Shown here piece by piece: positions 4,881-22,483 of a stretch of DNA of 24,000 nucleotides. The notes under the pieces are model-generated. The model saw only the letters and a list, made by a program, of their open reading frames with translations. It was not told the DNA's origin and did no database searches. Both the position numbers and the translations under genes were made by a program. The stretch's first letter is position 1; every line of letters begins with the position of its first letter. Source of the stretch: Oribacterium sp. oral taxon 078 str. F0262 (lineage in GTDB: Bacteria; Bacillota; Clostridia; Lachnospirales; Lachnospiraceae); NCBI RefSeq assembly GCF_000160135.1, contig NZ_GG729933.1, forward strand, positions 800,311 through 824,310, in the 5' to 3' direction.

Positions 4881-5357
4881 ATGGGGATCGGACCCTCTAC
4901 AAAGGAAACCACACTTCATCATTTCAGAGATCCGCTGCTTTCGGTTCTCTCTGAGGACCAGGACCTGGATCTTCTGGGGATCGTCATCGCCGGTATCCCG
5001 CAGGACAACGAGAATAAATATTTCACCGGAGAGCGCGTCGCCGCCTGGCTGGAGGCGATGAGGGCGGACGGCGCCGTCGTGAGCGAGGACAGCTGGGGAA
5101 ACAGCAATGTGGACTTCGCCCACGCGATTGAGGAGATCGGGAAGCGGGGCATCTCCGTCGTCGGCGTCAGCTTCGTCGGGACGCAGGCCCAGTTTGTCGT
5201 GAGCAATGAGTACATGGATACGATCGTGGACATCAATAAGAGCGCGGAAGGGATTGAGACCAATGTGGTCGGAGAGAACAACCTGGACGAGCGGGATGCG
5301 AGGAAGGCCGCTGCACTTCTCAAGCTCAAGATGAGGAAGAGAGAAAATGGAAAATAG
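4881..5357 (+). CDS. prdE: PrdE, paralog of the C-terminal (alpha) part of PrdA
   Basis: [20 protein letters not shown] aligns with [45 protein letters not shown] aligns with GNNHIDFASHIEQIGKRGIHVVGMSF. Confidence 0.8.
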
Positions 5358-7293
5358 CGCTCCGGCGGGGGCGGAGGAGCACCCCATCATCGTCGGAACG
5401 GCGGGACATATCGACCACGGAAAGACAGCGCTCATCAAGGCGCTGACCGGCTGTGACACGGACCGGCTGGAGGAGGAGAAGCGGCGGGGCATCACGATCG
5501 AGCTCGGCTTCACCTCCTTTCGGGGAGCAGACGGACATATCATCGGTATCGTCGACACGCCGGGGCATGAGAAGTTCGTAAAGACCATGGCCGCCGGCGC
5601 AGTGGGCATGGATCTCGCTCTGCTTGTGATCTCCGCGGCAGAGGGGATCATGCCGCAGACCCGGGAGCATCTCTCGATCCTGGAGCTTTTGCAGATCCCG
5701 AAGCTCATCGTCGCGCTCACAAAGACAGACCTCGCAGGGCCGGAGCAGGTCTCTCTCCGGGAGGAGGAGATTCGGAGCTATCTCTCCGAAACGGCCTACG
5801 CGGGTGCCGGGATCTATCCGGTCTCCGCAAAGAGCGGGGAGGGAATTGCGGAGCTTTCGCGGGCGATCAGCGAGGGCGGGAGAGAGCTTAGGGGGAAATC
5901 CCCGGAGGGAGTCTTCCGCCTTCCGATCGACCGCGTTTTCTCGATCCCGGGCCAGGGCACGATCGTCACGGGGACCCTCCTCTCCGGCAGGATCCGAAAT
6001 CAGGACAGCGCCATGATCTATCCCGAGGAGCGGCTCGTCAGGATCCGGAATGTCCAGGTCTACGGCGCGGACGCGGAGAGAGCGCTCGCAGGGGAACGCA
6101 CTGCTCTGAATCTTTCGGGGATTGAAAAGCAGGAGCTGAGACGGGGCGCGGTCCTCGCAGAGCCGCATTCCATGCGCCCTTCCCTCCTCCTCGATGTGAG
6201 GATCCGCAGTCTGAATGACGCGGGGAGAAGCATCCGCCACAACGCGAACCTGGAGCTACTCCTCGGCACGGCGCATATCCGCGCGAAGCTCGTCCTTCTC
6301 AAGGCATCCCTGGAGGAGGTACGAAATGGAGAAAGCGAACTCGCGCAGCTTCAGCTGGAGGAGCCGGCCGCGGCGAGTCGGGGGGATCGCTTCATCCTCC
6401 GAGACGAGTCCATCCGGGAGACCCTCGGAGGAGGATGCATCATCGACCCCGTGCCAAGGGGAAAGCACCGGAGAGGGAGAGCCGCGTATCTTGAGCTCCT
6501 GGAGCTCGAGAGGGGGAGTCAGGATGCAGTCCTTCGGGAGAAGCTCCGTAGGAGCAGGGGAGGCTTTGTTTCCTTCTCCGCCTTAAAAAGGGAGATGCAG
6601 CTCCGGGATTCGGAGCTCTCTGAAATGGCAGAGGCGCTGAGACAAAAAGGAGAGCTTCGCATCCTTTCCTCCGGCCCGGAGCGCTATGTGTTCAGCGAGG
6701 AGCTTTTGGAGAAAAAGCTCGAAGAGCTGGAGAAGTATCTTGCGGACTTCCACAAAGCCTATCCCTATCGGGCGGGAGAAAAGCAGATGGTGCTTCGAAG
6801 CCGGATCTTTTCGGATTTCGATACGAAGCCTTATCTTTTGCTTCTCGATGCATGGAATGAGGAAAAGAGGATCTGGAAAAATAAGGACAGAGTATCCGCC
6901 GCGGGATATCGGGTAATAAAGGACGCGCGCTATACGGAGATCTCAAATCAGATCGTAAATTCCCTGCAAAAGACCGGACTTTCCTTTCTAAGGATCCGGG
7001 ATATTTCCTTTCCAAAGGAGCTGGAGCCCTGGGTCAATGATGTTTCAGACTGCCTCTTCGATAAGAAGACCATCGTGAAGCTGGACGAGGAATACTGCAC
7101 GCTGAACAGCATTTATAAGAAGCTCCTTCTTCTCTCCGAGCAGGAGCTTTCAGAGAGCGGGAAGCTCACGATCGACCGGCTGAGGGATGAGACGGGAATC
7201 TCCCGAAAAAACGCAAAAATCTTTTTCCGCACTCTGGATAGAAATCATATTACAAGGTACAATGGCATAGAGAGCGAGCGGGAACGTTTTTAG
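5347..7293 (+). CDS. selB: Selenocysteine-specific translation elongation factor SelB
   Basis: The GTPase G1-G3 motifs are present ([28 protein letters not shown]). A long C-terminal extension is typical of the SECIS-binding winged-helix domains. The start overlaps the prdE 3' end by 11 nt. Confidence 0.9.
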
Positions 7294-7415
7294 GTCCGGC
7301 TCTGCCGTCCCGATTGCAGCGACTCAGCCGGGCGTCCGCTCCCGGCGCGATATTTCCGAAGCGGAGAACAGCGTATTACGAAGATTTGCAGAGGCTTATA
7401 AAGAGGGGGAGAAGG

Positions 7416-8957
7416 ATGGAGAAAGAACTGCTTGCCGTTCTGGATTTCGGCGGACAGTACAATCAGCTGATCGCGAGAAGGGTGCGGGATGAGGGCGTCT
7501 ATGCGGAGATCTACCGCTCGGACATCGACCTCGAAAAGCTCCGTGAGCGCAGGCCGAAGGGCATCATCTTTACCGGGGGGCCGCAGTCCGTCTACCGGGA
7601 GGAGAGTCAGCACATAGACCCCCGGATCTTCGATATGGGGATCCCCATCCTGGGCTTTTGCTACGGGGCGCAGCTCATCGCCTACGAGCTTGGCGGAGAG
7701 GTGAAAAAGGCGCCGATCAGTGAATACGGGAGGACGGAGCTCTCGGTAGACCGAAGCGCGGGACTTTTCCGGGAGGTATCGGAGCGAACGAGCGTATGGA
7801 TGTCTCATACCGATTATATCGCGAGGGCGCCGGAAGGGTTTTCTATCACCGGGAGCACGGAAAACTGCCCGATCGCTGCGATGGAGGATGAGAAGCGGGG
7901 CATCTATGCCCTTCAGTTCCATCCGGAGGTGCAGCACAGCGTGGAGGGGAGGAAGATGATCCACGCCTTCCTCTATGATATCTGCCATTTCCGCGGGGAC
8001 TGGAGGATGGACAGCTTTGTCTCAGACCAGATCGAGGCGATCCGGGAGAAGGTCGGCGGAGGGAAGGTCCTGCTCGCGCTCTCCGGCGGCGTGGACAGCT
8101 CCGTCGCAGCGACGCTTTTGTCCAAGGCGATCGGGAGACAGCTCAGCTGCGTTTTTGTGGACCATGGCCTGCTTCGAAAGTACGAGGGGGATGAGGTGGA
8201 GGCCGTCTTCGGGTCGACGGGAAAGTACGATTTGAACTTTATCCGCGTCAATGCCGGTCCCTTGTATCTGGAGAAGCTGAAGGGAGTGGAGGAGCCGGAG
8301 CAGAAGAGGAGAATTATCGGAGAGCGGTTTATCCGCATTTTCGAGCAGGAGGCAAAGAAGATCGGAGCAGTAGACTTTCTCGCTCAGGGGACGATCTACG
8401 CGGATGTCGTAGAGTCCGGGCTCGGAAACGGCGCCGTCATCAAGTCCCATCACAATGTGGGAGGGCTTCCGAAGAATATCGAATTCCGCGGCATCATTGA
8501 GCCTCTCCGGGATCTCTTTAAGGACGAGGTGCGCCGCGTCGGTCTGGAGCTCGGGCTCCCGGAGTCCCTCGTCTATCGTCAGCCCTTTCCGGGGCCGGGA
8601 CTCGGCGTCCGCATCATCGGAGAGGTCACGGAGGAAAAGCTCCGCATCGTCCGAGATGCCGATTTTATCTACCGGGAGGAAATTAAGAAGGCGGGGCTTG
8701 AAAGAAAGATCAGCCAGTATTTTGCAGCTCTGAGCAATATGCGCTCAGTCGGCGTCATGGGGGACTTCCGGACCTACGATTATGCCGTTGTGCTTCGCGC
8801 CGTCGAAACGGATGACTTTATGAGTGCGGAGTGTTCCAATATCCCCTTCGAGATTTTACAGAGAATCATGAACCGCATCGTAAACGAGGTCAAAGGGGTG
8901 AACCGCGTGCTCTATGACCTCAGCAGCAAGCCGCCGGGGACGATTGAGTTGGAGTAA
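7416..8957 (+). CDS. guaA: GMP synthase (glutamine-hydrolysing)
   Basis: The GATase domain is present ([13 protein letters not shown]). So are the ATP-PPase P-loop SGGVDSSV and the C-terminal dimerisation domain ending [11 protein letters not shown] 7416 is preceded by AGAGGGGGAGAAGG. Confidence 0.95.
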
Positions 8958-9016: not shown

Positions 9017-9040
9017 TTGGGTACGATTTGGGTACACTTT
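9017..9040 (+). repeat. Left boundary repeat TTGGGTAC-GAT-TTGGGTAC-ACTTT (putative attL)
   Basis: TTTGGGTACACTTT (9027-9040) is identical to 22194-22207. The 8-mer TTGGGTAC occurs twice, 11 bp apart, at both ends. Confidence 0.6.
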
Positions 9041-10340: not shown

Positions 10341-11096
10341 TGGCGAGCAGTGCGAAGAGAGATCCAAACGGTACATGGCGAATTATAGATTTACTGATTG
10401 GACCGGAAAAAGCGTAAATCACAGAAACGTGGATTCAAAACCAAAAAGGAAGCGGAGGAATGGGTTGCTCACTTCAAGTATCAGCAGTCTTCAGATCCGA
10501 GTATGCCGCTTCGGGATTTTTGGAAGATTCACATGGAGGATATGGGTAAAAGACTCAAGGAAACTACCATAGAGAATAAAGAACATATATGGAGATGCAA
10601 AATTGAGCCGTATTTCGGAGATCTTCCCATAAATGAAATTACTCCGTCAAGGATTCGCCGGTGGCAGAGCGAGATGATTGAAAAAGGTTTTAAGCTGACT
10701 TATCTGAAGTCAATCAACAGCCAGCTCTCAGCAGTTATGAATTACGCGGTGAGATTTTATGACCTTCGTTCTAATCCTTGTTTGAAAGCGGGGAGCATGG
10801 GTAAGGGAAGAGCGGACGAAAGACCATACTAGACCTTGGAAGAATTCAATAAATTCAGTGATGCCATAAGTAATAAACACGAAGCATGGATGGGATTTCA
10901 GATTCTGTTTTGGACGGGGATCAGGGTTGGAGAGCTTCTGGCTTTGAAAGTGGAAGATATTGATCTTGAAGCCAGACTCATCAGAATTGATGAGTCGTAC
11001 ACAAGGCTAAAGAGCAAGGATATCATATCCTCTCCGAAAACAGAGAATTCTATCAGAACCATAGTCATCCATGAAGAACTTACGGAAGAATTGTAA
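10340..11096 (+). pseudogene. Tyrosine recombinase/integrase, inactivated
   Basis: The N-terminal arm-binding region is spread over three frames: MASSAKRDPNGTWR (frame 2), NYRFTDWTGK (frame 1) and KRKSQKRGFKTKKEAEEW (frame 3, with a shift at the A5 run 10407-10411). An in-frame TAG at 10830-10832 (ERPY*TLEEFNKF) sits where this family usually has Trp. The catalytic domain stops about 60 aa after the first Arg box (WTGIRVGELLAL), and no H-x-x-R or Tyr box follows. Confidence 0.8.
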
Positions 11097-11297
11097 AGTC
11101 AGAGAGTTCACGGATTTCGTTTCCGAACATGGTCTAATGGAAGCATTTAGGAAATTTATCAGACCAAAGTCCATGAAGGAAAAACTGGAAATCGGAAAGC
11201 AAAAATCTCGTAAGATGGAGATTCAAAAGAAAAACTTAACCGTAGTAACGAATAAAAAATATGATATCGCAATATAGTAGTGGGAAAGGATTTTAAT

Positions 11298-11642
11298 ATG
11301 AATGTATATGGAGTATTAACAATATCGGAAGAATTTGAGGAGCGTGATGACCACTCTTATGAAACCTTGAAAGAGGAAGGCATATTTGGACTTAAGCTAA
11401 AGTTCAGAGGGTGGTATCGAAAGGCATTTTCGATGGGCTTAATATGTTATTTTGAAACGGTTGATGGAAAACGATGTAAATTATTTTGCTTCCGACACGC
11501 TAAGAATGGTGAGGACCAATATCGTCCGAAGCTGTGCGAGGTTGATTTTGAAAAAGTCAAAGATGGCACTTGGTGGCGCTGTGCTGTTGAGAAAAATGAG
11601 AAGGGAAATTACACCTGGGTAGCTGCAGAAACGATGGAATGA
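11298..11642 (+). CDS. Hypothetical protein (114 aa), no family recognised
   Basis: ATG 11298 follows GGGAAAGGA. The ORF ends directly at a strong terminator. It is Trp/Cys/charged-rich (RGWYRK, CKLFCFRH, GTWWRC). Confidence 0.5.
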   Translation: MNVYGVLTISEEFEERDDHSYETLKEEGIFGLKLKFRGWYRKAFSMGLICYFETVDGKRCKLFCFRHAKNGEDQYRPKLCEVDFEKVKDGTWWRCAVEKNEKGNYTWVAAETME

Positions 11643-11650: not shown

Positions 11651-11685
11651 GGGCGGGAGAGATAATTCTCCCGCCGGTTTTTTTA
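11651..11685 (+). terminator. Rho-independent terminator
   Basis: GGCGGGAGA (11652-11660) pairs with TCTCCCGCC (11667-11675) and is followed by a T-run (11678-11684). Confidence 0.75.
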
Positions 11686-11741: not shown

Positions 11742-11770
11742 TTGACAATGAGTATAATGAGTGTTATTAT
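11742..11770 (+). promoter_or_regulatory. Candidate sigma-70-type promoter of the Fic/type I R-M/kinase gene string
   Basis: TTGACA (11742-11747), a 17-nt spacer, then TATTAT (11765-11770), 59 nt upstream of the fic ATG. Confidence 0.45.
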
Positions 11771-11828
11771 TTAAATGCATCATAAAATCCGCTTATGAGT
11801 GAATTGATGTTTGAATGAGGATATTGAA

Positions 11829-12887
11829 ATGAGAAATTTTGATTACAGTAAAAAATGGGAAAAACTACTGACGCCAGAAATCGTGGCATTGCTTACGCAA
11901 ATCCACGAGTATAAAGGCGAGCAGTCACTTTTTATAGAAGCAAAGGCAGATACACTGACCCAACTTGTGGAGATTGCAAAAATCCAGAGTACTGAGTCTT
12001 CCAATAAGATTGAAGGTATTTATACTTCTGATGCCAGATTGAAAGCTCTTGTAAAGGATAAGACTACACCTAAGACAAGAAATGAGCGTGAGATTGCCGG
12101 CTACAGGGATGTGCTTAATACCATCCATGAAAATCATGATTATATTTCAATCAGACCGAATATGATTCTTCAGTTACATAGAGATTTATACAAGTTTGAA
12201 GGATATGATATCGGCAGAAAATATAAAGCTGCTGACAATATCATTGAGGAGGAAGACGAAAAGGGGAACAAGTTTGTCAGATTTAGACCGGTCCCTGCTT
12301 GGGAGACACCTGAGTCAATTGAGAACCTTTGTAATGAATTTGATAAAGCTCTCGGTTCCGGGACAATAGATCCGCTTCTTCTGATACCGATGTTCATATT
12401 GGACTTTCTTTGTATCCATCCGTTTAATGACGGTAACGGCAGAATGAGTAGATTGCTCACATTGCTGATGCTATACAGAGCCGGATACATCGTAGGGAAA
12501 TATATCAGTATCGAGCACCTGATTGAAAAGACAAAAGAATCATATTATGAATGCTTGCAGGAAAGCTCTCTTAACTGGCATGAAGACGAAAACAATTACG
12601 TTCCGTTTGTTCAGTATATGCTGGGCGTTGTAATTGCAGCATATAGAGATTTTTCTGACAGAGTACAGGTATTGGTTACAAGCGGACTTTCAAAACCGGA
12701 ACGTGTGGCTGAACTGATTAAGAACACATACGGTGAGATCACAAAGTCTCAGATTATGGAAAAGTGTCCTGATATCAGCCGTATAACGGTAGAAAGAGCA
12801 TTGTCTGAATTGTTGTCATCAGAAAGTATTATAAAGATCGGTGGCGGTAGATATACAAAATATGTTTGGAACAGAGACAAGGAATAA
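11829..12887 (+). CDS. Fic-family protein (probable AMPylase) with an N-terminal inhibitory helix and a C-terminal winged-helix-like domain
   Basis: The Fic motif HPFNDGNGRMSR is at 12417-12452. The auto-inhibition motif S-x-x-x-E-G (SNKIEG) is at 12000-12017. ATG 11829 follows GAGGA. Confidence 0.9.
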   Translation: MRNFDYSKKWEKLLTPEIVALLTQIHEYKGEQSLFIEAKADTLTQLVEIAKIQSTESSNKIEGIYTSDARLKALVKDKTTPKTRNEREIAGYRDVLNTIHENHDYISIRPNMILQLHRDLYKFEGYDIGRKYKAADNIIEEEDEKGNKFVRFRPVPAWETPESIENLCNEFDKALGSGTIDPLLLIPMFILDFLCIHPFNDGNGRMSRLLTLLMLYRAGYIVGKYISIEHLIEKTKESYYECLQESSLNWHEDENNYVPFVQYMLGVVIAAYRDFSDRVQVLVTSGLSKPERVAELIKNTYGEITKSQIMEKCPDISRITVERALSELLSSESIIKIGGGRYTKYVWNRDKE

Positions 12888-12899: not shown

Positions 12900-14399
12900 A
12901 TGACCGGTGAACTTGGTAATAAGATTGATAGTTTATGGGAGATTTTTTGGAACGGAGGAATCACCAATCCGCTTGATGTTGTTGAGCAGATGACATACCT
13001 CATGTTTATAAAGGATTTGGATGATACAGACAACCTTCGTGCTAAGGAAGCTGCTATGCTGGGACTTCCGTATAAGAGCATATTCGCAGATGAGGTTGAA
13101 ATCGGTGATCGAAAGATTGACGGCAATCAGCTTAAGTGGTCCACATTTCATGATTTTTCGGCACAGAGAATGTACGCGGTGGTTCAGGAGTGGGTATTTC
13201 CGTTTATTAAGAATCTTCACGGGGATAAGAACTCTGCGTACAGCAAATATATGGATGATGCAATCTTCAAGGTAAATACACCTTTGATGCTCTCCAAGAT
13301 TGTGGATGCCATGGATGAGATTTATTCCATGATGGAAGAACTTCACCAGACAGATATCCGCGGGGATGTATATGAGTATCTTCTTTCCAAGATTGCTCAG
13401 TCCGGTGTTAACGGTCAATTTAGAACGCCGAGACATATTATCCGCATGATGGTAGAGATGATGGATCCTAAGCCGACAGATTCTATTTGTGATCCTGCTT
13501 GCGGAACCTCCGGATTCCTTGTTGCCAGTGGAGATTATCTCAGAGAAAAGTACAAGAAGGAAGTTCTTCTTGATAAGCAGAACAGAAATCATTTTATGAA
13601 TGATATGTTCCACGGATATGACATGGACAGAACCATGCTTCGTATTGGGGCCATGAATATGATGACTCACGGGGTGGAGAATCCGTTTATAGAGTATCGT
13701 GACAGCTTATCGGATCAGAATCCTGATAAGGAGATGTATTCCCTTATTCTGGCAAATCCGCCTTTTAAGGGAAACCTTGACGCTGATACAGTATCAACGG
13801 ATCTTCAGAAAGTTTGCAAGACTAAGAAAACAGAGCTATTATTCCTGGCGTTGTTCGTAAGGATGCTTAAAATAGGCGGCAGATGCGCATGCATCGTACC
13901 TGACGGAGTGCTCTTTGGTTCTTCCAATGCTCATAAGGCAATCAGAAAAGAAATAGTCGAAAATCAGCGACTTGAAGCGGTGATTTCGATGCCTTCCGGC
14001 GTATTTAAACCATACGCTGGAGTTTCCACCGGAATACTTATCTTCACGAAGACCGGTCACGGTGGAACAGATGATGTATGGTTCTATGATATGACAGCGG
14101 ACGGATTCAGCCTTGATGATAAGCGAACTGAAATAAAGGATAATGACATTCAGGATATTATCAGCCGATTCAAGAATCTGGAGGCTGAAAAAGGCAGAAA
14201 ACGTACAGATAAATCCTTCATGGTATCCAAGAAGGAGATTGCTGATAATGATTATGATCTTTCAATTAATAAATATAAAGAGGTTGAGTATGTTGCTGTA
14301 GAGTACCCGCCGACATCTGAGATTATGGCAAATATTAGAGAAATCGAGAAGCAGATAGGCAAGGAAATGGACGAGCTTGAAAAGCTTCTTAATGTGTAA
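12900..14399 (+). CDS. hsdM: Type I restriction-modification system, DNA methyltransferase subunit M
   Basis: It has an HsdM N-terminal domain (LWEIFWNGGITNPLDVVEQMTYLMFIK), the AdoMet motif DPACGTSGFL and the catalytic NPPF (LILANPPFKG). The start is 12 nt after the fic stop and has an AAGGAG RBS. Confidence 0.95.
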   Translation: MTGELGNKIDSLWEIFWNGGITNPLDVVEQMTYLMFIKDLDDTDNLRAKEAAMLGLPYKSIFADEVEIGDRKIDGNQLKWSTFHDFSAQRMYAVVQEWVFPFIKNLHGDKNSAYSKYMDDAIFKVNTPLMLSKIVDAMDEIYSMMEELHQTDIRGDVYEYLLSKIAQSGVNGQFRTPRHIIRMMVEMMDPKPTDSICDPACGTSGFLVASGDYLREKYKKEVLLDKQNRNHFMNDMFHGYDMDRTMLRIGAMNMMTHGVENPFIEYRDSLSDQNPDKEMYSLILANPPFKGNLDADTVSTDLQKVCKTKKTELLFLALFVRMLKIGGRCACIVPDGVLFGSSNAHKAIRKEIVENQRLEAVISMPSGVFKPYAGVSTGILIFTKTGHGGTDDVWFYDMTADGFSLDDKRTEIKDNDIQDIISRFKNLEAEKGRKRTDKSFMVSKKEIADNDYDLSINKYKEVEYVAVEYPPTSEIMANIREIEKQIGKEMDELEKLLNV

Positions 14400-14447: not shown

Positions 14448-15605
14448 ATGAAAAAAAGAGCATTTACCGAGTGCGTCGAAATTGTTGGCAGCGCATGTAA
14501 GCAATATGATGGTGTAAAGAACTACATAAGTACTGGCGCTGTGGATGTGGATTATATAGTGTCGGACGAGATAGAACGATTCGAATTTGAAAATCGTCCT
14601 TCTAGAGCTAACCTTGAAGTCAATAAAGGTGATATTATTTTTGCAAAAATGCAGGGTACTAAAAAGACTCTTTTGATAGACGATGCATTATCGCAAAATA
14701 TATATTCTACTGGGTTTTGCGCGGTGAGACCAAAGGATGACGTGCTTACAGATAGATGCTTATATCATTTGGTGACAAGTGAAATGTTTTTATCTCAAAA
14801 AGATAAGAATTGCTCAGGAGCAACACAGAAAGCGATTACAAACGCCGGCCTTGAGAAAATATTCATTAGGGTTCCTGATTACCATTTACAGGAAAGGATA
14901 GCAGATGAGTTGGATAAGCTTGCTGTTATTATTTCGAAAAGGAAAAACCAGCTAATCAAACTTGATGAATTAATCAATGCGCGGTTTGTTGAGATGTTTG
15001 GAGATCCGGTAAATAATGAAAAAAAATGGTCTACAAAGGCGCTGGAGGATGCCTGCAGGTCTATTGTCGATTGTCCTCATTCCACCCCAAACTATACGTC
15101 TGAAAACACTGGATTTATGTGCATTCGAACATCGATTGTCAAAAAAAATAGAATTATGTGGGATGATATAGAATTCATACCAGAGGAAGAGTATAAACAA
15201 AGGACTCAAAGAAAAAAGCCAGAGAAGGGAGATGTCGTCTATACTCGTGAAGGCGCGATTTTAGGGATAGCTGCCATTATAGACAGGGATTGCAATGTTG
15301 CACTTGGTCAGCGATCCATGCTCGTGTCACCTGATGATAAAATTTGCACGTCAGAATTTCTATCTGTAGCAATGAATTTTGATTCTTTTTTGAATAATGC
15401 GCTTAAGGGTATGAGCGGTTCGGCGTCGCCACATATCAATGTTGGCGATATTAAAACATTTAAAATGATTATGCCCCCAGTTAAACAGCAAGAAGAATTT
15501 TCGACTTTTGTAAAACAAATTGAGAAATCAAAAAATATAGTTGGCCAGGCATTGGAGGAAACGCAAGTCTTATTTAATAGTTTGATGCAAGAATATTTTG
15601 GATAG
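14448..15605 (+). CDS. hsdS: Type I restriction-modification system, specificity subunit S (two target-recognition domains)
   Basis: It has the central conserved helix (LAVIISKRKNQLIKLDELINARFVEMFGDP) and the C-terminal conserved helix (QQEEFSTFVKQIEKSKNIVGQALEETQVLFNSLMQEYFG), and it sits after hsdM. Confidence 0.9.
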   Translation: MKKRAFTECVEIVGSACKQYDGVKNYISTGAVDVDYIVSDEIERFEFENRPSRANLEVNKGDIIFAKMQGTKKTLLIDDALSQNIYSTGFCAVRPKDDVLTDRCLYHLVTSEMFLSQKDKNCSGATQKAITNAGLEKIFIRVPDYHLQERIADELDKLAVIISKRKNQLIKLDELINARFVEMFGDPVNNEKKWSTKALEDACRSIVDCPHSTPNYTSENTGFMCIRTSIVKKNRIMWDDIEFIPEEEYKQRTQRKKPEKGDVVYTREGAILGIAAIIDRDCNVALGQRSMLVSPDDKICTSEFLSVAMNFDSFLNNALKGMSGSASPHINVGDIKTFKMIMPPVKQQEEFSTFVKQIEKSKNIVGQALEETQVLFNSLMQEYFG

Positions 15606-15613: not shown

Positions 15614-15925
15614 ATGCAGGAATATTTACCATACGTTGTTTCTGTGCTGTGTGCATTCTTATCAGGAATTTTTAGTTATGCAATAGCAAGAAAACAGGCA
15701 AAAAATGATATAAAGATCATCACTAAGCAACATGAAGTTGATTTAGAGGCATTAGAGCGCAAGCATTAGATGGAGCTTGAAAAATTGAATTTGGAACATA
15801 CGCATCAGTTGGAACTTCAACAAAAGGAATTTGAAGCGACTCTGAGTTCATCGTTGCTGACTGAAGCAATGAAAATACCAGAGATAAGACAACAGATTTC
15901 ACAAGGAATGAAGAAAGGTAAATGA
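15614..15925 (+). pseudogene. Small membrane-anchored coiled-coil ORF interrupted by an in-frame TAG (51 aa + stop + 51 aa). It is below the size cut-off of the ORF track.
   Basis: ATG 15614 lies 8 nt after the hsdS stop, behind AGGTGAG. The translation is MQEYLPYVVSVLCAFLSGIFSYAIARKQAKNDIKIITKQHEVDLEALERKH, then TAG (15767-15769), then MELEKLNLEHTHQLELQQKEFEATLSSSLLTEAMKIPEIRQQISQGMKKGK. The charged helical pattern continues across the stop. Confidence 0.45.
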
Positions 15926-15928
15926 TAG

Positions 15929-16453
15929 ATGAGTGTATCAGTTGATAGCATAGCTGAAAAGACATTTGATAATTTTAAAAAAATAACGCCAGCTTTGGTA
16001 GCTGTTGCAATTTTGGCAGGACTGCTATTGTTTCTTCCTGAAAATGTTTTGGCGCGAATGAGCCTCAATGAACTGCCGGATTTATGGAAGCAAATTATTG
16101 GAATAGTGTTCCTGCTTAGCGTAGCGCTGATTTCTACGATGGTTGTTTTTTCAGTGATTTCTCAGATTACTGAAAAAAGGAGAAATAAGCGTATTAGAGC
16201 AAATTTGAGGAAAAAATATCAGACACTAAGTCCGAAACAAAAAACTATTATTTTACAGGTTTTGAGAAGCGAAGATAAAACTATATCACTGGACAAAAAT
16301 TCTGGAGATACCATTTATTTGGTAAACAACTTGTTTTTGCACATGCCAGGGCAAGCTTTTACATTAGGATGGAATAATGAAATGATATTGACATATGTTC
16401 CTCAGCCTTGGTTGATCGAATTGTATAATGAAGAACCTGATTTGTTTAAGTAA
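15929..16453 (+). CDS. Two-TM membrane protein resembling the superinfection-exclusion protein B (SieB) family
   Basis: There are two hydrophobic spans (ITPALVAVAILAGLLLFLP and IIGIVFLLSVALISTMVVFSVI). A basic stretch follows, then a soluble tail (LSPKQKTIILQVLRSEDKTISLD...YVPQPWLIELYNEEPDLF) that matches my memory of the PF14163 architecture. The ATG comes 3 nt after the preceding TGA. Confidence 0.6.
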   Translation: MSVSVDSIAEKTFDNFKKITPALVAVAILAGLLLFLPENVLARMSLNELPDLWKQIIGIVFLLSVALISTMVVFSVISQITEKRRNKRIRANLRKKYQTLSPKQKTIILQVLRSEDKTISLDKNSGDTIYLVNNLFLHMPGQAFTLGWNNEMILTYVPQPWLIELYNEEPDLFK

Positions 16454-16483
16454 TCAGATTTGAGTCCTGGAAGGAGAGTTAGC

Positions 16484-16641
16484 ATGCCTACAAAAGCCAC
16501 CTGGCCATTATTTACATTATCTAAGAAAATGATTGGGAAGCGGATCATATTGTTCCATGAAGCAAAGGCGGCAATACTGAGATAGAGAACAGACAGGTAT
16601 TGTGTCCGACTTGTAATTCGAAAAAGAGCGACACACTGTAA
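16484..16641 (+). pseudogene. HNH endonuclease remnant
   Basis: Frame 1 reads ENDWEADHIVP-TGA(16558-16560)-SKGGNTEIENRQVLCPTCNSKKSDTL-stop, which is the D-H...N...C-x-x-C-N core of HNH. The only RBS-linked ATG (16484, after AGGAG) is in another frame. There is no upstream C-x-x-C. Confidence 0.55.
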
Positions 16642-16668
16642 AATGCTTACTGGCAAGGAGGTAGTTAC

Positions 16669-19600
16669 ATGACCAATTTCGATTATTTGAAAAAGGAGGC
16701 AAAATTTAACACATTTTCTGATGTGGCGATTGCAGCTGAAAAAATATTATATATAGATCCTACCTCCTGCATAATTAACTGTCGTAGGGCAATGGAGTTT
16801 GCAATAAAGTGGATGTATTCCGTTGATGCATCCCTGACCATGCCTTATCAGGACAATCTGATAAGTCTTATGAGCACAGAAGAATTCAGGGATATTATCG
16901 ATGATGACCTTATGAAACGTATGGACTTCATCCGTAAGATGGGGAATAATGCTGCTCATTCAAACAAGAAGATTACAGAGGATCAAGCTATCCTGTGTCT
17001 TGAAAATCTTCAGATTTTCTTTGATTTTGTATGCTATTGCTATGCAGATGAGTATGAAGAACATACCTTTGACAAGGCTCTCCTGGTAAAGGATGAAACA
17101 GCACAGTTTAATAATGATTTCCCGGATGTAGATATTGAAAAGCTCATTGAAGAGAATTCTGCGTTAAAGAAAGAATTGACTTCACGTCGTGAAGAACAGG
17201 TGGAGACCTACGTTCCGAAGCCGTTGGATCTTTCTGAGTATAAAACTCGTAAGATTTATATTGATGCAATGCTTATGGATGCGGGATGGAAGGAAGGCTC
17301 CGATTGGATCAATGAAGTAGAACTTCCTGGAATGCCGAACAAATCTGAAGTGAGATACGCTGATTATGTTCTTTATGACAATTCGCATAAACCGCTTGCC
17401 GTTATTGAGGCAAAAAGAACATGCGCCGACGTTTCAAAAGGGCATCGGCAGGCTAAACTCTATGCAGATCTTTTGGAAAAGCAATATAAGAGAAGACCTT
17501 GCGTTTTCTTAACAAATGGTTTCGAGACAAGAATCATAGATGGGCAATACCCCGAGAGAAAGGTTGCCGGCATTTATTCTAAAGCTGACCTTGAAAAGAT
17601 GTTTAATCTCAGAAGGATGCGGACATCTCTTGATCATATAAATGTAGATGAGAAGATTGCCGGTCGTTACTATCAGGAGGCTGCTATAAAAGCGGTATGT
17701 GACAGCTTTGATAAGAAGAATCGTCGGAAAGCGCTTCTTGTCATGGCTACAGGATCCGGTAAGACAAGAACAGTAATAGAACTATGTCATGTGCTTCTAG
17801 ATGCAGGATGGATTAAAAACATTCTCTTCTTAGCTGATAGAACATCTCTTGTAATACAGGCTAAGAGAGCATTTGTAAATAACTATGCTTCTCTTTCGGT
17901 TACAAATCTTTGCGAAGAAAAAGACAACTATAATGCCCACTGTGTATTTTCAACTTATCAGACAATGATGAGTTGTATCGATTCTGTAAAGGCTGAAGAT
18001 CAAAAGCTGTTTACTAGCGGCCATTTTGACCTCGTGATATGTGATGAGGCTCATAGATCAATATATAACAAATATAGAGATATCTTTACTTACTTTGATG
18101 CGCCACTTGTAGGTCTTACGGCTACTCCGAAGGATGATATTGATAAGAATACTTATGAGATATTTGAACTGGAACCAGGCGTTCCGACTTACGGTTATGA
18201 GCTTGGGCAGGCTGTAACCGATGGATATCTTGTGGATTTCTTGTCCGTAGAGACAAAGCTTAAGTTCATAGAGCAGGGAATCGTGTATGGAGATCTTTCT
18301 GAGGAAGATAAAGCAATTTATGAAAGTACTTTTGAAATGGAAGACGGAGATGTTCCGGAAGCCATAAGTTCATCAGCACTTAACTCATGGATTTTTAACG
18401 AAGATACCATTCGTCAGGTGCTTCATACCGTTATGACAGAGGGCATTAAGATAGATTATGGACAGAAGCTTGGAAAGACTATCATCTTTGCAAAGAATCA
18501 TGATCACGCAGAAAAGATCCTTGAGATATTTAATAAGGATTATCCGCACTTAAACGGATTTGCACAGATTATTGATAACAGGATTAATTATGCCCAGACA
18601 TTGATAGATGAGTTCTCGGAGCCTAAAAAACTTCCGCAGATAGCGATATCCGTAGATATGATGGATACCGGTATCGATGTACCGGAAGTATTGAATCTTG
18701 TTTTTTTCAAGAAAGTAATGAGTTACGCTAAGTTCTGGCAGATGATTGGTCGAGGAACCAGACTTTGTCCGGGACTTATAGATGGTGAAGATAAGAGCAA
18801 GTTTTATATATTTGACTTTTGTGGGAATTTTGAATTCTTCCGCATGAGTAAAGGAAAACCTACAGCCAATATGATTGCCCTTCAGGGAGCCATCTTTAAT
18901 CTACAGTTTGAGATTGCTTATAAACTGCAAGATCTGGATTACCAGGTAGACAGGCTTATAGCATATCGTAACGCATTGGTAGAGATGATGACCGGAAAGG
19001 TGCAGGAGCTCCCTCGTGAAAACTTTGCGGTAAGGCAACATTTGAAATATGTTGATTTATATTCGGTTGAGACAAATTATCAGACACTGACGTATGAAGA
19101 TACGTTACTTGTCAGGGAAGAGTTGGCTCCGCTGATTCTTCCGAACGATGACGAGGCAAGTGCGGTACGTTTTGATGCGCTTATGTATGGCATAGAGCTT
19201 GCATATCTTGTTGGCAAGAAATATGGCAGAGCCCGTAGCGACCTGTTTAAACGTGTCAGGGGCATTGCAAGTGTTGCAAATATTCCTGAAATAAAAGTGC
19301 AGGCAGAACTTATCGATAAGATTCTTCATACGGATTATATCGATAACTGTGGCATCAACGAGTTTGAGGAAATCAGAGAAAAACTTCGTAATCTTATGAA
19401 GTATATTCCTCATACGAAGCTTCGTTATGATACGAACTTTGAGGATGATATCCTTGATATTTCATGGAAGGAATCAGAACTTGAGAATGATGACCTGAAG
19501 AATTACAAGGCAAAAGCAGAGTACTACATCCGTGAACATCAGGATAACGAGGCAATTAAGAAACTTAAGTCCAACATACCGCTGTCGCATTGTGATATTG

Positions 19601-19959
19601 AGGCATTGGAAAAGGTACTTTGGTCAGAACTTGGCACCAAGGAAGAATATGAGCAGGAATATGGATCTAAGCCTCTGGGCGAGCTCGTTCGTGAAATTGT
19701 CGGTCTTGATATGAATGCTGCTAAGGCGGCATTTTCAGAGTACCTGGAGAGCAACAACCTTGATAGCCGGCAGATATACTTTGTGAACCAGATTGTAGAG
19801 TATATCGTTCACAATGGCATGATGAAGGATCTGTCCGTTCTTCAAGAATCTCCGTTTACAGATCAGGGCAGCGTAGTTGAGATATTTACGGACCTCAATG
19901 TCTGGATGGGAATCCGGAAGGTAATAGAAAGCATAAATGATAACGCGATAGCGGCGTAA
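16669..19959 (+). CDS. hsdR: Type I restriction enzyme, R (endonuclease/translocase) subunit, with an N-terminal DUF4145-like domain
   Basis: It has a PD-(D/E)xK nuclease region (ADYVLYD...VIEAKR), helicase motif I (MATGSGKTRT), motif II (VICDEAHRS), motif III (GLTATP) and motif VI (QMIGRGTRL), plus an EcoEI-type C-terminal domain. The AAGGAGG RBS is at 16655-16661. Confidence 0.95.
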   Translation: MTNFDYLKKEAKFNTFSDVAIAAEKILYIDPTSCIINCRRAMEFAIKWMYSVDASLTMPYQDNLISLMSTEEFRDIIDDDLMKRMDFIRKMGNNAAHSNKKITEDQAILCLENLQIFFDFVCYCYADEYEEHTFDKALLVKDETAQFNNDFPDVDIEKLIEENSALKKELTSRREEQVETYVPKPLDLSEYKTRKIYIDAMLMDAGWKEGSDWINEVELPGMPNKSEVRYADYVLYDNSHKPLAVIEAKRTCADVSKGHRQAKLYADLLEKQYKRRPCVFLTNGFETRIIDGQYPERKVAGIYSKADLEKMFNLRRMRTSLDHINVDEKIAGRYYQEAAIKAVCDSFDKKNRRKALLVMATGSGKTRTVIELCHVLLDAGWIKNILFLADRTSLVIQAKRAFVNNYASLSVTNLCEEKDNYNAHCVFSTYQTMMSCIDSVKAEDQKLFTSGHFDLVICDEAHRSIYNKYRDIFTYFDAPLVGLTATPKDDIDKNTYEIFELEPGVPTYGYELGQAVTDGYLVDFLSVETKLKFIEQGIVYGDLSEEDKAIYESTFEMEDGDVPEAISSSALNSWIFNEDTIRQVLHTVMTEGIKIDYGQKLGKTIIFAKNHDHAEKILEIFNKDYPHLNGFAQIIDNRINYAQTLIDEFSEPKKLPQIAISVDMMDTGIDVPEVLNLVFFKKVMSYAKFWQMIGRGTRLCPGLIDGEDKSKFYIFDFCGNFEFFRMSKGKPTANMIALQGAIFNLQFEIAYKLQDLDYQVDRLIAYRNALVEMMTGKVQELPRENFAVRQHLKYVDLYSVETNYQTLTYEDTLLVREELAPLILPNDDEASAVRFDALMYGIELAYLVGKKYGRARSDLFKRVRGIASVANIPEIKVQAELIDKILHTDYIDNCGINEFEEIREKLRNLMKYIPHTKLRYDTNFEDDILDISWKESELENDDLKNYKAKAEYYIREHQDNEAIKKLKSNIPLSHCDIEALEKVLWSELGTKEEYEQEYGSKPLGELVREIVGLDMNAAKAAFSEYLESNNLDSRQIYFVNQIVEYIVHNGMMKDLSVLQESPFTDQGSVVEIFTDLNVWMGIRKVIESINDNAIAA

Positions 19960-19999: not shown

Positions 20000-22186
20000 A
20001 TGAAGGCTGGAGATATTATTGCTGGAAAGTGGCTAGTAAAGGCTGAAGGTGAAGGGGGAGGCCAAGGAACTGTATATAAGGTAGTAGAACAAGATGCAAG
20101 TGAAGAGGAATATGCATTAAAGTTTTTGCATAAACAAAAAGATCAAGAGCGTAGAGAGAGAATGCATTATGAGGTTCAGAATGTTTCTCAGTTGGATAGT
20201 GTTCATTTGATGAGGATTGTGGAATCAAATACGGATCAATATGAGGATGAAACGGTAAAACTGTATTATGTTGCAGACTTTATCGAAGGAATGTCCTTAG
20301 AAAAATATGTTGAATCACATGATACAGATTTTGATACGGCGCTAAACTTTTTTGTGGAATTGTTGAATGTTTTGTATTATTGTCATTCGAATAATATCAT
20401 TCATAGAGATATTAAACCAGATAATATTATGTTACCAAATGGTGAACTGATGTCTTTTGTTCTTATAGATTTTGGATTATCGTTTAATCGTGAAGAGCAA
20501 GAGGGAATAACCGAAACAAATCAGCAGCTTGGGAACCGATTCATCCTTTTGCCGGAACTTGTGAGTGGGTCTTCTGAACAGAAGAGAATGCCACAGTCTG
20601 ATATTACGCAGGCAGCTGCAGTGTTTTTATATATATTGACGGGGTGTATTCCAAATTCGTTGTTTGATGGTGAGGGAAAGCAACCGCATCTTAGACATCG
20701 GTGCCAAAGTGCTTTGCGCTCCAAAGTATTGGAAAGAAATGCGTGGGATAATATAAACTGTATTCTTAGTAGATGCTTTGCTAATAATGTTGAGGAACGT
20801 TATTCGGATGAAAAAGAATTGTTACGAGAAATTCAGAATATACATGAACGTCGCGTGACAGAGATTGGAGGAGATATAATGGTAATAAATGCTGAGATGT
20901 CCCAGAATACCAGTAATGGGCTTACTACTTTGCGATATTCTGAATTGATGAACAATTTAAATCCTTGTTTAGAAATATGTAATCCTGCGGGATTGCAGTT
21001 ACCATTAGAGACAAATGTTGAACAGTTAATCACGTATGGAATCGCGTTGCCGAAACCTGTTCAAGCAAAAGTAGTAAAGTATTATATGGATGGGGATTTT
21101 GCAACTGCTACAGAGCATGTTTGGCCCAGGGCAATCAACATTCTTCGTAGAAGAATCCTGTCATTGGGCGAAGACTTTGTAGCAGATATGGTCGAGACAA
21201 CCGATTTGGAGTATGTTAGAGAGTTGCCTGCGTACAAAGTTATAGAGTTGTCTAGTGAGCTCGGATTTATAGATAAGAAAGGGAAAAGACAACTTCTTAA
21301 TGCTAATGAGTATTATAATTTTTTCCAAAATACAGAGGCTGACGATTATGAAGAAATGCCAAAGGATGAGGCAAATATAATAATAAAAAATGGGATTAAG
21401 TACATTTTATATAACAATGAAGATTCTTTTGGGCTTCAATTTAATGATTTTAGGGAGAAATTAAAAACAGGCAGAATATCAGAACTTTTTGAAGATGATG
21501 AGGTTATGTTTGAGTCATGCCCATATTTTTACTTGAAGATAACAGTTAGATCTTTGCTGAATTTGTTCTCTGATACGGAAGGAATTGAGTTCGATAATGT
21601 TTCTATCAACATGAATAGCTTCTTCCCGAAGGCATGGGGGCGGCTAAAGTTTGATGAGAGAAGAGCTCTTGCAGATATGTATTCAGATTATCAAAGTAAC
21701 AGAGATTCTAAGCGCGTAAATGTACTTAGTAAAATAATGGTAGCCGTTCATGGATTTGATTATGTTAAAGAAAACGAAAGATTGCGTACATATATTGCAG
21801 TTGCACGTAAATTAAAAGATATTCATTTCTCAATGAATAATTTTTATAATGAGCCGAGCCAGATTAAGCTATTAGAGGATTTGGGAACGATAATTCCTTC
21901 ATTGGCTTTAAAAGATTGTATAACAGCGATACTCTTTATAAAGTTAGGGAATCAGTATGGAACAAGTTGGTCTGCTGAAGATATAGCGGACAGGTTGTTA
22001 GCCCGATTAACAGAAACTGAATGGAGGACGTATTTGGAGCAGTATTTTAAGGAGGAAGAGGAGTTACAGGATTACATTACAAATTGCAATAAGATGAGGC
22101 AGAACTGGAAAAATGTTATTGCTACATACAAACTAAAGGAGTTAAATATTACTGATGTCATAGCAAAAAGATTTGTCTCCATTTAA
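20000..22186 (+). CDS. Hanks-type Ser/Thr protein kinase domain (about aa 1-285) fused to a roughly 440-aa C-terminal domain of unknown function
   Basis: It has the Gly loop GEGGGQGTVYK, the Lys of YALKF (K41), the catalytic loop HRDIKPDN (20402-20425), DFG (20468-20476) and a late Arg (EERYSDEKELL). I saw no TM segment and no PASTA, FHA or TPR signature. It starts 40 nt after hsdR on the same strand. Confidence 0.85.
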   Translation: MKAGDIIAGKWLVKAEGEGGGQGTVYKVVEQDASEEEYALKFLHKQKDQERRERMHYEVQNVSQLDSVHLMRIVESNTDQYEDETVKLYYVADFIEGMSLEKYVESHDTDFDTALNFFVELLNVLYYCHSNNIIHRDIKPDNIMLPNGELMSFVLIDFGLSFNREEQEGITETNQQLGNRFILLPELVSGSSEQKRMPQSDITQAAAVFLYILTGCIPNSLFDGEGKQPHLRHRCQSALRSKVLERNAWDNINCILSRCFANNVEERYSDEKELLREIQNIHERRVTEIGGDIMVINAEMSQNTSNGLTTLRYSELMNNLNPCLEICNPAGLQLPLETNVEQLITYGIALPKPVQAKVVKYYMDGDFATATEHVWPRAINILRRRILSLGEDFVADMVETTDLEYVRELPAYKVIELSSELGFIDKKGKRQLLNANEYYNFFQNTEADDYEEMPKDEANIIIKNGIKYILYNNEDSFGLQFNDFREKLKTGRISELFEDDEVMFESCPYFYLKITVRSLLNLFSDTEGIEFDNVSINMNSFFPKAWGRLKFDERRALADMYSDYQSNRDSKRVNVLSKIMVAVHGFDYVKENERLRTYIAVARKLKDIHFSMNNFYNEPSQIKLLEDLGTIIPSLALKDCITAILFIKLGNQYGTSWSAEDIADRLLARLTETEWRTYLEQYFKEEEELQDYITNCNKMRQNWKNVIATYKLKELNITDVIAKRFVSI

Positions 22187-22193: not shown

Positions 22194-22216
22194 TTTGGGT
22201 ACACTTTGGGTACAAT
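22194..22216 (+). repeat. Right boundary repeat TTTGGGTAC-ACT-TTGGGTAC-AAT (putative attR, or the attL of the next element)
   Basis: It shares the 14-mer TTTGGGTACACTTT and the double 8-mer layout with 9017-9040. It begins 8 nt after the kinase stop. Confidence 0.6.
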
Positions 22217-22429: not shown

Positions 22430-22483
22430 AAAAAAGTAGCGCTGTCTGATTTACATCGTGTAAGTCAGGCAGCGCTATTTTTC
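22430..22483. terminator. Bidirectional intrinsic terminator that ends the second XRE gene
   Basis: TAGCGCTGTCTGATTTACA pairs with TGTAAGTCAGGCAGCGCTA (22437-22477, two G-U pairs). An A-run lies upstream and a T-run downstream. Confidence 0.7.

What the first reader, a model, noticed from the sequence alone, without database searches (positions are those of the whole stretch)
15614..16453. Membrane-protein module (small TM/coiled-coil ORF plus a SieB-like protein) embedded between hsdS and hsdR
Seen in sequence: two extra reading frames are packed into the type I operon with near-zero spacing. The first ATG is 8 nt after the hsdS stop, and there are 3 nt between the two. One frame encodes a single-TM protein with a charged helix. 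The other encodes a two-TM protein whose layout matches the SieB superinfection-exclusion family.

Established knowledge: SieB of lambda and P22 aborts superinfecting phage development. The hsdS-hsdR interval is the same slot PrrC occupies in the prr locus.

Inference: this is an Abi-type membrane effector physically and transcriptionally coupled to a type I R-M system, possibly released when restriction is neutralised. I do not know of a described SieB-like protein in this context.
Basis: partly seen in the sequence, partly recalled or inferred. Interest (0 to 1): 0.7.

Follow-up and report, generated by a model that had tools for sequence, protein, structure and literature searches.

The report
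SieB-like membrane gene inside restriction operon
A small membrane protein of the phage "SieB" exclusion family sits inside a type I restriction-modification operon of an oral Oribacterium; this layout recurs widely in gut and oral Clostridia and probably adds an abortive-infection back-up to restriction, but the small partner gene next to it is broken in this genome.

Summary
The 174-aa ORF (15929-16453) is a genuine SieB-family protein: Pfam PF14163 scores 57.5 bits against a cut-off of 26. It has two N-terminal TM helices, a basic stretch and a cytoplasmic winged-helix-like domain.

Relatives have CAG there and an intact 104-aa gene.

Recurrence is strong. There are 78 related loci with 50 distinct sequences. 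Of the intact copies with enough flank, 18 of 20 have hsdS upstream and 17 of 21 have hsdR downstream. Homologues at only 30-31% identity sit in the same place.

The slot is a cargo hotspot that also holds GmrSD-like genes, PARIS-like genes and hsdS shufflons. The window itself carries a deletion scar of a GmrSD-like cassette at 16454-16668.

SieB-like genes also occur free-standing in guaA-anchored defence islands, which favours an autonomous Abi-type effector over a PrrC-like guard. The guard model is not excluded.

RefSeq already names the protein SieB, and embedding of defence genes in type I operons is an established idea. I found no paper describing this particular pairing. I rate it a new member of a known kind, of moderate interest.

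The parts
11742..11770 (+). Promoter-like site (TTGACA-17-TATTAT with TG extension) upstream of Fic; likely operon promoter
   Evidence: 11 of 12 matches, the best in the region. It is preceded by a terminator-like hairpin at 11652-11675.
11811..12887 (+). Fic/DOC protein (SoFic-like), first gene of the operon
   Evidence: Pfam PF02661 E = 2e-14. PADLOC SoFic E = 2.5e-37. It precedes hsdM in most related loci that extend far enough upstream.
12900..14399 (+). hsdM (type I methyltransferase subunit)
   Evidence: Pfam N6_Mtase E = 1.8e-66 and HsdM_N.
14448..15605 (+). hsdS (specificity subunit), stop codon TAG
   Evidence: Pfam Methylase_S E = 2.3e-19. Stop codon identified.
15614..15769 (+). 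N-terminal half (TM helix plus start of charged helix) of the 104-aa small membrane protein gene; ends at premature amber codon 15767-15769
   Evidence: The alignment to L001-L003 shows CAG changed to TAG. TM segment at residues 5-26.
15770..15925 (+). C-terminal half of the same gene, in frame, starting at the native Met53; its last codon is mutated to TGA
   Evidence: Family alignment A4. AF2 of an intact relative gives one helix 4-87 plus a helix 89-103, pLDDT 83. phrog_2542 E = 4e-12.
15929..16453 (+). SieB-family (PF14163) membrane protein of 174 aa, intact; identical to WP_009214424.1
16454..16668 (+). Deletion scar. It keeps the first ~15 codons and the last ~110 nt of a GmrSD-like (DUF262/HNH) gene. 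The following 254-aa gene (phrog_4170) is absent.
   Evidence: blastn to L001, L010, L025 and L029. Gene content of L001. PHROG hit.
16669..19959 (+). hsdR with an N-terminal DUF4145 (HEPN-family) domain and an EcoEI_R_C tail
   Evidence: Pfam. DUF4145 is described as a HEPN family in PMC3710099.
20000..22186 (+). PD-T4-6-like Ser/Thr kinase, last gene of the operon or island
   Evidence: Pfam Pkinase E = 2.1e-29. PADLOC PD-T4-6 E = 1.5e-88.
22435..22479 (+). Terminator-like hairpin; the only strong (20-pair) one on the + strand after the operon promoter

Best explanation
The 174-aa ORF is a true SieB-family inner-membrane protein. It has cytoplasmic N and C termini, a two-helix TM hairpin, a basic juxtamembrane helix and a small winged-helix-like cytoplasmic domain.

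It is carried as accessory cargo in the variable hsdS-hsdR slot of a Fic-hsdM-hsdS-...-hsdR operon. That operon lies on a ~13-kb low-GC defence island inserted at the 3' end of guaA in Oribacterium sp. oral taxon 078.

The protein most likely acts on its own as an abortive-infection or exclusion effector. It would be co-transcribed with the restriction enzyme and give a second layer against phages that escape restriction. By analogy with P22 and lambda SieB, it would shut down macromolecular synthesis mid-infection, probably through the membrane.

The upstream 104-aa single-pass helical protein is a separate, optional exclusion-type gene. It has distant relatives in the lysogeny modules of streptococcal prophages. 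In this genome it is inactivated, or at least split, by an amber mutation.

What is shown: family membership, topology, operon layout, recurrence, purifying selection and cassette turnover. What is inferred: the defence function, its autonomy from the RM enzyme, and membrane-level killing.
For: Family and structure:
- PF14163 hit above the curated cut-off.
- Collinear 23% identity to lambda SieB over 168 aa (E = 5e-5; hhalign E = 1.7e-4).
- The top BFVD structural hit is the P22 'initial portion of N operon' protein Q38660, which I take to be P22 SieB (probability 0.95, E = 0.49).

Embedding:
- Of intact copies with enough flank, 18 of 20 have hsdS upstream and 17 of 21 have hsdR downstream.

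Autonomy:
- Free-standing copies sit beside AbiH, a KAP NTPase or a caspase-like protein in defence islands.
- More distant family members (20-24% identity) lie in Bacillus plasmids without nearby RM genes; one of these (the 15-kb Bacillus plasmid 3) also carries a phage tail tape-measure gene.

Slot as a cargo hotspot:
- It holds GmrSD+254aa, integrase+hsdS', Bro-N/DUF3800, DUF3990/3791, PARIS-like AAA_15+DUF4276 and a 286+375-aa pair.
- SieB 3' remnants with several different breakpoints persist upstream of hsdR.
- RM backbones as close to the window as L001 (HsdM 97%, HsdR 95.5%) carry SieB alleles of either 95% or 85% identity.

Selection and partner gene:
- dN/dS is 0.03-0.08.
- The small protein matches phrog_2542. 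Its phage homologue in IPP23 lies next to the cI-like repressor and integrase.

Literature:
- Published SieB phenotype (PMC10461980).
- Published precedent that genes embedded in type I operons are independent defences (TgvAB, PMC11411939; Payne et al. preprint).
Against: - There is no functional test, and the SieB mechanism itself is unknown.
- PADLOC has no model for either protein.
- No relative was found in 50,697 phage genomes or in IMG/VR, so the phage analogy rests on distant homology.
- The gene's position immediately upstream of hsdR is conserved from 100% down to 30% identity: a 4-70 nt gap (most often 31 or 37 nt) where no other cassette intervenes, and a 14-nt overlap in L089-L091. 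A freely moving cassette would not be expected to stay so fixed, which hints at coupling to HsdR.
- Many copies are disrupted: 23 of 50 distinct sequences are partial.
Confidence: 0.55

Rival explanations
1. PrrC-like guard. The SieB-like protein is held latent by the HsdMSR complex and is released or activated when a phage anti-restriction protein neutralises the enzyme. It then aborts the infection from the membrane.
For: - It occupies the hsdS-hsdR slot that I recall PrrC occupying in the prr locus; the review I read says only that prrC is embedded within that type IC locus (PMC12707154; PMC3506569).
- Embedding is near-exclusive.
- It sits tightly next to or overlaps hsdR across 30-100% identity and across two HsdR architectures.
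- A PARIS-like pair occupies the same slot in L019. PARIS is described as an RM guardian that senses Ocr.
Against: - Free-standing SieB-like genes exist outside RM operons.
- I know of no RM requirement for lambda or P22 SieB; the papers I read do not address this.
- RM loci of the same lineage persist after SieB loss or replacement.
- The protein has no nuclease or ATPase domain.
- No evidence of physical interaction is available.
Confidence: 0.2
2. RM accessory rather than a defence effector. The membrane-anchored protein, with its winged-helix-like cytoplasmic domain, would tether or regulate HsdR, for example by positioning the enzyme at DNA entry sites or restraining self-restriction.
For: - Its position directly before hsdR is fixed, with apparent translational coupling.
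- The C-terminal fold resembles MarR-type winged helices, but only weakly (all E > 1).
Against: - It is dispensable in many intact RM loci.
- It occurs away from RM genes.
- Its family is known for phage exclusion.
- The fold matches are not significant.
Confidence: 0.08
3. Decaying relic in this genome. The island is eroding, and the module no longer functions here even though the SieB-like ORF is still open.
For: - The integrase is a pseudogene with in-frame TAG and TAA stops.
- The small gene has a nonsense codon.
- The GmrSD-like and 254-aa cassette is deleted.
- Independent disruptions occur in relatives L010, L021-L024, L029 and L075.
Against: - The SieB-like ORF is intact and 95% identical to L001, with dN/dS of 0.06.
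- SieB-only loci are common and intact, so loss of the small gene need not disable it.
- Fic, hsdMSR and the kinase are all intact.
Confidence: 0.12

Closest known systems
SieB of phages lambda and P22 (Pfam PF14163)
   Same: - It passes the family HMM (57.5 bits against a cut-off of 26; lambda SieB scores 103.5 bits).
- It is of similar length (174 vs 184 aa) and aligns collinearly with lambda SieB over 168 residues, with two predicted TM segments followed by a basic stretch. The shared layout is inferred from that alignment, because lambda SieB's own topology was not computed here.
- The P-x-x-W motif before TM2 and the L(S/T)xxQ motif are conserved in the pairwise alignment.
- The P22 protein is the best structural match in BFVD.
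   Different: - It is not on a prophage. No relative was found in 50,697 phage genomes or in IMG/VR.
- Identity to lambda SieB is only 23%.
- It is embedded in a type I RM operon.
- Nothing indicates the in-frame Esc product or the sas antisense RNA that control the phage genes.
- The phenotype is untested.
PrrC anticodon nuclease in the EcoprrI (type IC) locus
   Same: - It is an accessory gene embedded in a type I operon, in the same hsdS-hsdR slot (slot position from my recollection of the prr gene order).
- Like PrrC, it is found almost only embedded.
   Different: - PrrC is a cytoplasmic ABC-ATPase plus HEPN RNase. This protein is a 2-TM membrane protein with no enzymatic domain.
- Latency through binding to Hsd proteins is not shown here.
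- Some copies are free-standing.
TgvAB and other defence genes embedded in type I RM, BREX or Hma operons ('guilt by embedding', Payne et al. preprint; PMC11411939)
   Same: - It is an unrelated defence-type cassette inserted between core RM genes on the same strand.
- It also occurs non-embedded.
- The slot holds alternative cassettes, including a GmrSD-like gene that has left a scar in this window.
   Different: - The cargo is a membrane protein of the SieB family.
- That family is not named in that preprint's text or in its 11 supplementary files.
- There are no activity data.
HEPN (DUF4145)-HsdR fusions and the immunity-suicide coupling hypothesis (PMC3506569, PMC3710099)
   Same: - The same operon combines restriction with putative suicide or dormancy modules.
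- The HsdR here carries the DUF4145 domain.
   Different: - The SieB-like protein is a separate gene product and is membrane-bound.
- It also occurs with an HsdR that lacks DUF4145.

Membership tests
SieB superinfection-exclusion family (PF14163) | Significant match to the family HMM above the curated gathering score | tested here: met
   E = 1.6e-15, 57.5 bits against a cut-off of 26, covering residues 24-149 and profile positions 2-127 of 147. Precomputed PF14163 on every listed homologue.
SieB superinfection-exclusion family (PF14163) | Same architecture as lambda SieB: two N-terminal TM helices, a basic stretch, and a ~90-aa cytoplasmic C-terminal domain | tested here: met
   Collinear BLASTP alignment to lambda SieB, 23% identity over 168 aa, E = 5e-5. 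hhalign E = 1.7e-4. Hydropathy of the window protein. AF2 helices 5-34 and 49-98 plus an alpha/beta domain. Lambda SieB's own hydropathy was not computed.
SieB superinfection-exclusion family (PF14163) | Encoded by a temperate phage and expressed from the prophage | tested here: not met
   The locus is a guaA-inserted island with RM, Fic and kinase genes and a dead integrase, with no phage genes. There is no tblastn hit in 50,697 phage genomes and none in IMG/VR.
SieB superinfection-exclusion family (PF14163) | In-frame internal translation product (Esc) and antisense RNA (sas) controlling the gene | tested here: inconclusive
   Met44 is nearly invariant and some database ORFs start there. No Shine-Dalgarno-like sequence precedes it in the window. 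Rfam finds nothing. The feature itself is described.
SieB superinfection-exclusion family (PF14163) | Aborts lytic growth of superinfecting phage by stopping macromolecular synthesis mid-cycle | not testable with these tools
   The phenotype is described in PMC10461980. Testing it needs phage challenge.
PrrC-type restriction guard | Gene embedded between hsdS and hsdR of a type I operon, on the same strand | tested here: met
PrrC-type restriction guard | ABC-ATPase N-domain plus HEPN anticodon-nuclease C-domain | tested here: not met
   There is no such Pfam, NCBIfam or PADLOC hit; only SieB is found.
PrrC-type restriction guard | Found (almost) only embedded in type I RM | tested here: inconclusive
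   18 of 20 intact copies have hsdS upstream and 17 of 21 have hsdR downstream. Free-standing copies are L032, L035 and L037. The sample is limited to retrievable contigs.
PrrC-type restriction guard | Latent complex with Hsd proteins, activated by anti-restriction factors | not testable with these tools
   This needs biochemistry or genetics.
Defence cassettes embedded in immune operons (Payne et al.; TgvAB) | Non-core gene(s) inserted within a multi-gene defence operon, with alternative cassettes at the same site and non-embedded homologues elsewhere | tested here: met
   Alternative cargo in the same slot. Remnants and scars. Non-embedded copies.
Defence cassettes embedded in immune operons (Payne et al.; TgvAB) | Demonstrated anti-phage activity independent of the host operon | not testable with these tools
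   There are no experimental data for this clade.

The most novel reading that the evidence does not exclude
SieB-family proteins may be functionally wired to type I restriction enzymes. One version is a membrane-anchored guard triggered when HsdR is blocked. Another is a tether that couples HsdR to the membrane at DNA entry. Either would explain why the gene stays immediately upstream of hsdR (or overlapping it) from 100% down to 30% identity. It would also give the first mechanistic handle on SieB exclusion, which is still described as 'less well understood' roughly 50 years after its discovery.
Probability: 0.18. Interest if true: 0.7.

Novelty: new member of a known kind. Interest (0 to 1): 0.45.

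Why it matters
SieB is one of the oldest known phage-exclusion genes, yet its mechanism is unknown and current defence catalogues do not model it (no PADLOC hit).

This analysis shows a sizeable, purifying-selected clade of SieB homologues living outside phages in oral, gut and rumen Clostridia. Almost all of them sit between hsdS and hsdR. That gives:
- a tractable comparative data set (intact, SieB-only, small-gene-only and naturally broken alleles);
- a clear experiment to separate an autonomous Abi from a restriction guard;
- another documented example of the hsdS-hsdR interval acting as a cassette-exchange hotspot.

If the protein proves to be coupled to HsdR, it would be a membrane-level analogue of PrrC.

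Tried and rejected
1. Amber read-through or recoding of the TAG at 15767-15769. Rejected. Relatives have CAG, hsdS and selB end in TAG, no tRNA gene is present, and the integrase is independently decayed. It is a plain C-to-T nonsense allele, shared by an independent contig.

2. The 250-aa ORF upstream of SieB in L006-L009 as an alternative partner. Rejected. It is the first gene of a separate two-gene cassette (286 + 375 aa in L056), and the remnant of its second gene lies before SieB in L006.

3. The short SieB C-terminal fragments upstream of hsdR as Esc-like truncated proteins. Rejected as the main reading. They belong to one near-identical gut lineage, have at least three different 5' breakpoints and carry substitutions at otherwise conserved residues.

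4. Broken genes being specific to loci that carry the pair. Not supported. SieB-only loci also show remnants and frameshifts.

5. Literature and tool dead ends:
- Makarova 2011 and Ranade & Poteete 1993 are not held.
- The first 'SieB' search was polluted by 'Siebert'.
- All PDB Foldseek hits have E > 1, so 'winged helix' is only a suggestion.

6. Rfam found no RNA family in the window.

Full report
**What is in the window**

The window comes from Oribacterium sp. oral taxon 078 str. F0262, based on exact matches to EFE92422-EFE92427. A low-GC (~38%) stretch from about 9.0 to 22.5 kb interrupts ~58% GC host DNA. It begins right after guaA (7314-8957).

On the + strand the island encodes, in order:
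- a decayed tyrosine integrase with in-frame stops;
- a SoFic-like Fic protein;
- hsdM and hsdS;
- the region under study;
- an hsdR with an N-terminal DUF4145 domain;
- a PD-T4-6-like kinase.

One strong promoter-like site (11742-11770) precedes Fic. The scan finds no strong terminator-like hairpin on the + strand inside the operon before the 20-pair one at 22435-22479, so the layout fits a single operon. This is a consensus scan, not proof.

**Observation check**

In this genome there are therefore three same-frame ORFs of 51, 51 and 174 aa. Alignment with relatives shows CAG at that codon and an intact 104-aa gene. It also shows that the terminal CGT codon has become TGA here. An independent metagenome contig, 99.4% identical over 4.4 kb, has the same split and the same downstream scar. 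The mutation is therefore real and is circulating.

**Identity of the 174-aa protein**

- Pfam PF14163 (SieB): E = 1.6e-15, 57.5 bits against a cut-off of 26. Lambda SieB scores 103.5 bits on the same model.
- Direct comparison with lambda SieB is weak but collinear: 23% identity over 168 aa, E = 5e-5, and hhalign E = 1.7e-4.
- Hydropathy and an AF2 model (pLDDT 77) give a TM hairpin, a long basic helix and a small alpha/beta C-terminal domain.
- The best BFVD structural match is the P22 'initial portion of N operon' protein Q38660, which I take to be P22 SieB (probability 0.95, but E = 0.49).
- The PDB matches are MarR-type winged helices, all non-significant.
- RefSeq already calls the protein 'super-infection exclusion protein B'.
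- PADLOC has no model for it.

**Recurrence**

The 90%-clustered protein collection holds 271 homologue clusters, nearly all of 174 aa. The 50%-clustered library holds 362 representatives at E ≤ 1e-3.

All 14 loci from the first look-ups and the species-representative genomes place the gene between hsdS and hsdR of the same Fic-hsdM-hsdS-hsdR operon type. Adding 60 metagenome loci and four loci found through the small protein gives 78 loci and 50 distinct sequences, of which 27 are intact. Among the intact copies with enough flank, 18 of 20 have hsdS upstream and 17 of 21 have hsdR downstream.

Homologues at only 30-31% identity show the same embedding. One sits before a DUF4145-bearing HsdR with a 3-nt gap (4 nt start to end). 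Another overlaps by 14 nt an HsdR that lacks DUF4145.

**Is it a fixed pair?**

No.
- The 104-aa gene abuts SieB in the window, L001-L005, L010, L014, L021-L026 and L029. In L014 the two genes have co-diverged to 54% and 67% identity.
- Many loci have hsdS followed directly by SieB (L011-L013, L027, L028, L030, L033 and others).
- The small gene also occurs in the slot without SieB. It stands alone in L017 and L018, and ahead of a PARIS-like AAA_15/21 + DUF4276 pair in L019.
- The small protein is a TM helix running into a ~60-residue charged helix (AF2 pLDDT 83).
- It matches phrog_2542 (E = 4e-12).
- It has 28-30% identical homologues in five streptococcal temperate phages. In phage IPP23 the homologue lies in the lysogeny module beside the cI-like repressor. 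That is the classic place for prophage exclusion genes.

**The slot is a cassette-exchange hotspot**

Other cargo found between hsdS and hsdR includes:
- GmrSD-like plus a 254-aa gene;
- integrase plus a second hsdS (a shufflon);
- Bro-N and DUF3800;
- DUF3990/DUF3791;
- a 286 + 375-aa pair;
- a 135-aa TM protein;
- a Tn7-like insertion.

In one widespread human-gut lineage only the 3' end of the SieB gene survives, 37 nt before hsdR, with at least three different 5' breakpoints.

The window's own 215-nt gap (16454-16668) is a scar. It keeps the first ~45 nt and the last ~105 nt of the GmrSD-like gene seen in L001, L010, L025 and L029, and it lacks the 254-aa gene.

RM backbones equally close to the window carry different SieB alleles (95% identity in L001, 85% in L010). 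hsdS itself is only ~30% identical between loci. This indicates recombination within the central part of the operon.

**Autonomous effector or guard?**

Evidence for autonomy:
- SieB-like genes also stand outside RM operons but inside defence islands. Examples are guaA-AbiH-SieB (L037), guaA-134aa-SieB-caspase-like protein-hsdM (L035) and comM-dprA-SieB-KAP NTPase (L032).
- A 26%-identical homologue precedes a NERD protein.
- Bacillus homologues lie in plasmids without RM genes nearby; one of these (the 15-kb Bacillus plasmid 3) also carries a phage tail tape-measure gene.
- Published precedent shows that genes embedded in type I operons can work independently (TgvAB, PMC11411939; Payne et al. 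preprint).

Evidence for coupling:
- The fixed position just before hsdR over deep divergence is not something the cargo model predicts.
- It keeps a PrrC-like or HsdR-linked role open (PrrC is reviewed).

**Selection and decay**

Both genes show dN/dS of about 0.03-0.08. Disruptions are nevertheless common:
- window: small gene Q52 to stop;
- L023: small gene E46 to stop, plus a SieB C-terminal frameshift;
- L021 and L022: both genes frameshifted;
- L010 (a Butyrivibrio isolate): SieB codon 4 is a stop;
- L029: a stop in TM2;
- L075: frameshifts.

This may reflect toxicity-driven loss or ordinary island erosion. I cannot tell which.

**Comparison with what is known**

- The SieB phenotype is that macromolecular synthesis stops mid-cycle. 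Control by Esc and sas comes from phage work. None of this is tested here.
- The coupling of RM with suicide-type modules, including DUF4145/HEPN-HsdR fusions, was proposed in 2012-2013.
- I found no paper linking SieB or PF14163 to type I RM. The family does not appear in the 'guilt by embedding' preprint or in its supplements. The library is incomplete.

**Verdict**

- The 174-aa ORF is a real, annotated SieB-family protein.
- Its conserved embedding in type I operons is, as far as I could find, undescribed.
- It fits an established class, so I rate it a new member of a known kind.
- The mechanism (an Abi-type membrane effector, probably autonomous) is inferred.
- Interest is moderate, at 0.45.

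Noticed in passing
window 10398-11300: The island's tyrosine integrase is a pseudogene. It has an in-frame TAG at 10830-10832, then a TAA at 11094-11096 followed by several more stops downstream. The island is therefore probably immobilised.
   Followed up: partly
window 16454-16668: This is not a plain intergenic spacer. It is the deletion scar of a GmrSD-like (DUF262/HNH) gene and a 254-aa phrog_4170 gene that are intact in L001, L010 and L029, with L025 showing matching flanks.
   Followed up: yes
window 9027-9040 and 22194-22207: A 14-bp direct repeat (TTTGGGTACACTTT), with neighbouring TTGGGTAC copies, brackets the low-GC island just after guaA and just after the kinase gene. These are candidate att sites. 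guaA is also the left neighbour of related islands in L001, L017, L035, L037 and L049.
   Followed up: partly
window 16669-17010 (HsdR residues ~23-114): HsdR carries an N-terminal DUF4145 domain, which is classed as a HEPN (RNase-type) family. The restriction subunit itself may therefore include a suicide or dormancy module.
   Followed up: partly
window 20000-22186; L035 2030-4171: The C-terminal ~450 aa of the PD-T4-6-like kinase are 33% identical to the C-terminal part of a caspase-domain (PF00656) protein that sits next to a SieB-like gene in L035. This looks like an effector-domain swap on a shared C-terminal module.
   Followed up: partly
L019 7592-9487: An AAA_15/AAA_21 ATPase plus DUF4276 pair (PARIS-like) is embedded in the same hsdS-hsdR slot. 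It is preceded by a homologue of the small TM/helix gene and a 75-aa ORF.
   Followed up: no
L051-L078, L084 (e.g. L074 6049-6276; L056 6160-6393): A widespread human-gut type I RM lineage keeps only a 3' fragment of the SieB-like gene, 37 nt upstream of hsdR. The 5' breakpoints differ and other cargo lies upstream. In L056 the fragment is fused in frame to hsdR by loss of the stop codon.
   Followed up: partly
L010 10001-10522 (Butyrivibrio sp. NC2002); L029 1628-2149: Independent nonsense codons occur in the SieB-like gene itself, at codon 4 in L010 and codon 69 in L029. In both loci the 104-aa gene is intact, which is the reverse of the situation in the window.
   Followed up: partly
alignment A4 (small protein family); window 15614-15925: The small protein family has a conserved E-H-x-H-Q motif and invariant Y7, H62, E84 and P89 on an otherwise variable charged helix. 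This hints at a specific binding or metal site.
   Followed up: no
window 1-8957: The host flank encodes glycine/sarcosine/betaine reductase components, the selenocysteine elongation factor SelB, and guaA. No tRNA and no Rfam family was detected anywhere in the window.
   Followed up: partly
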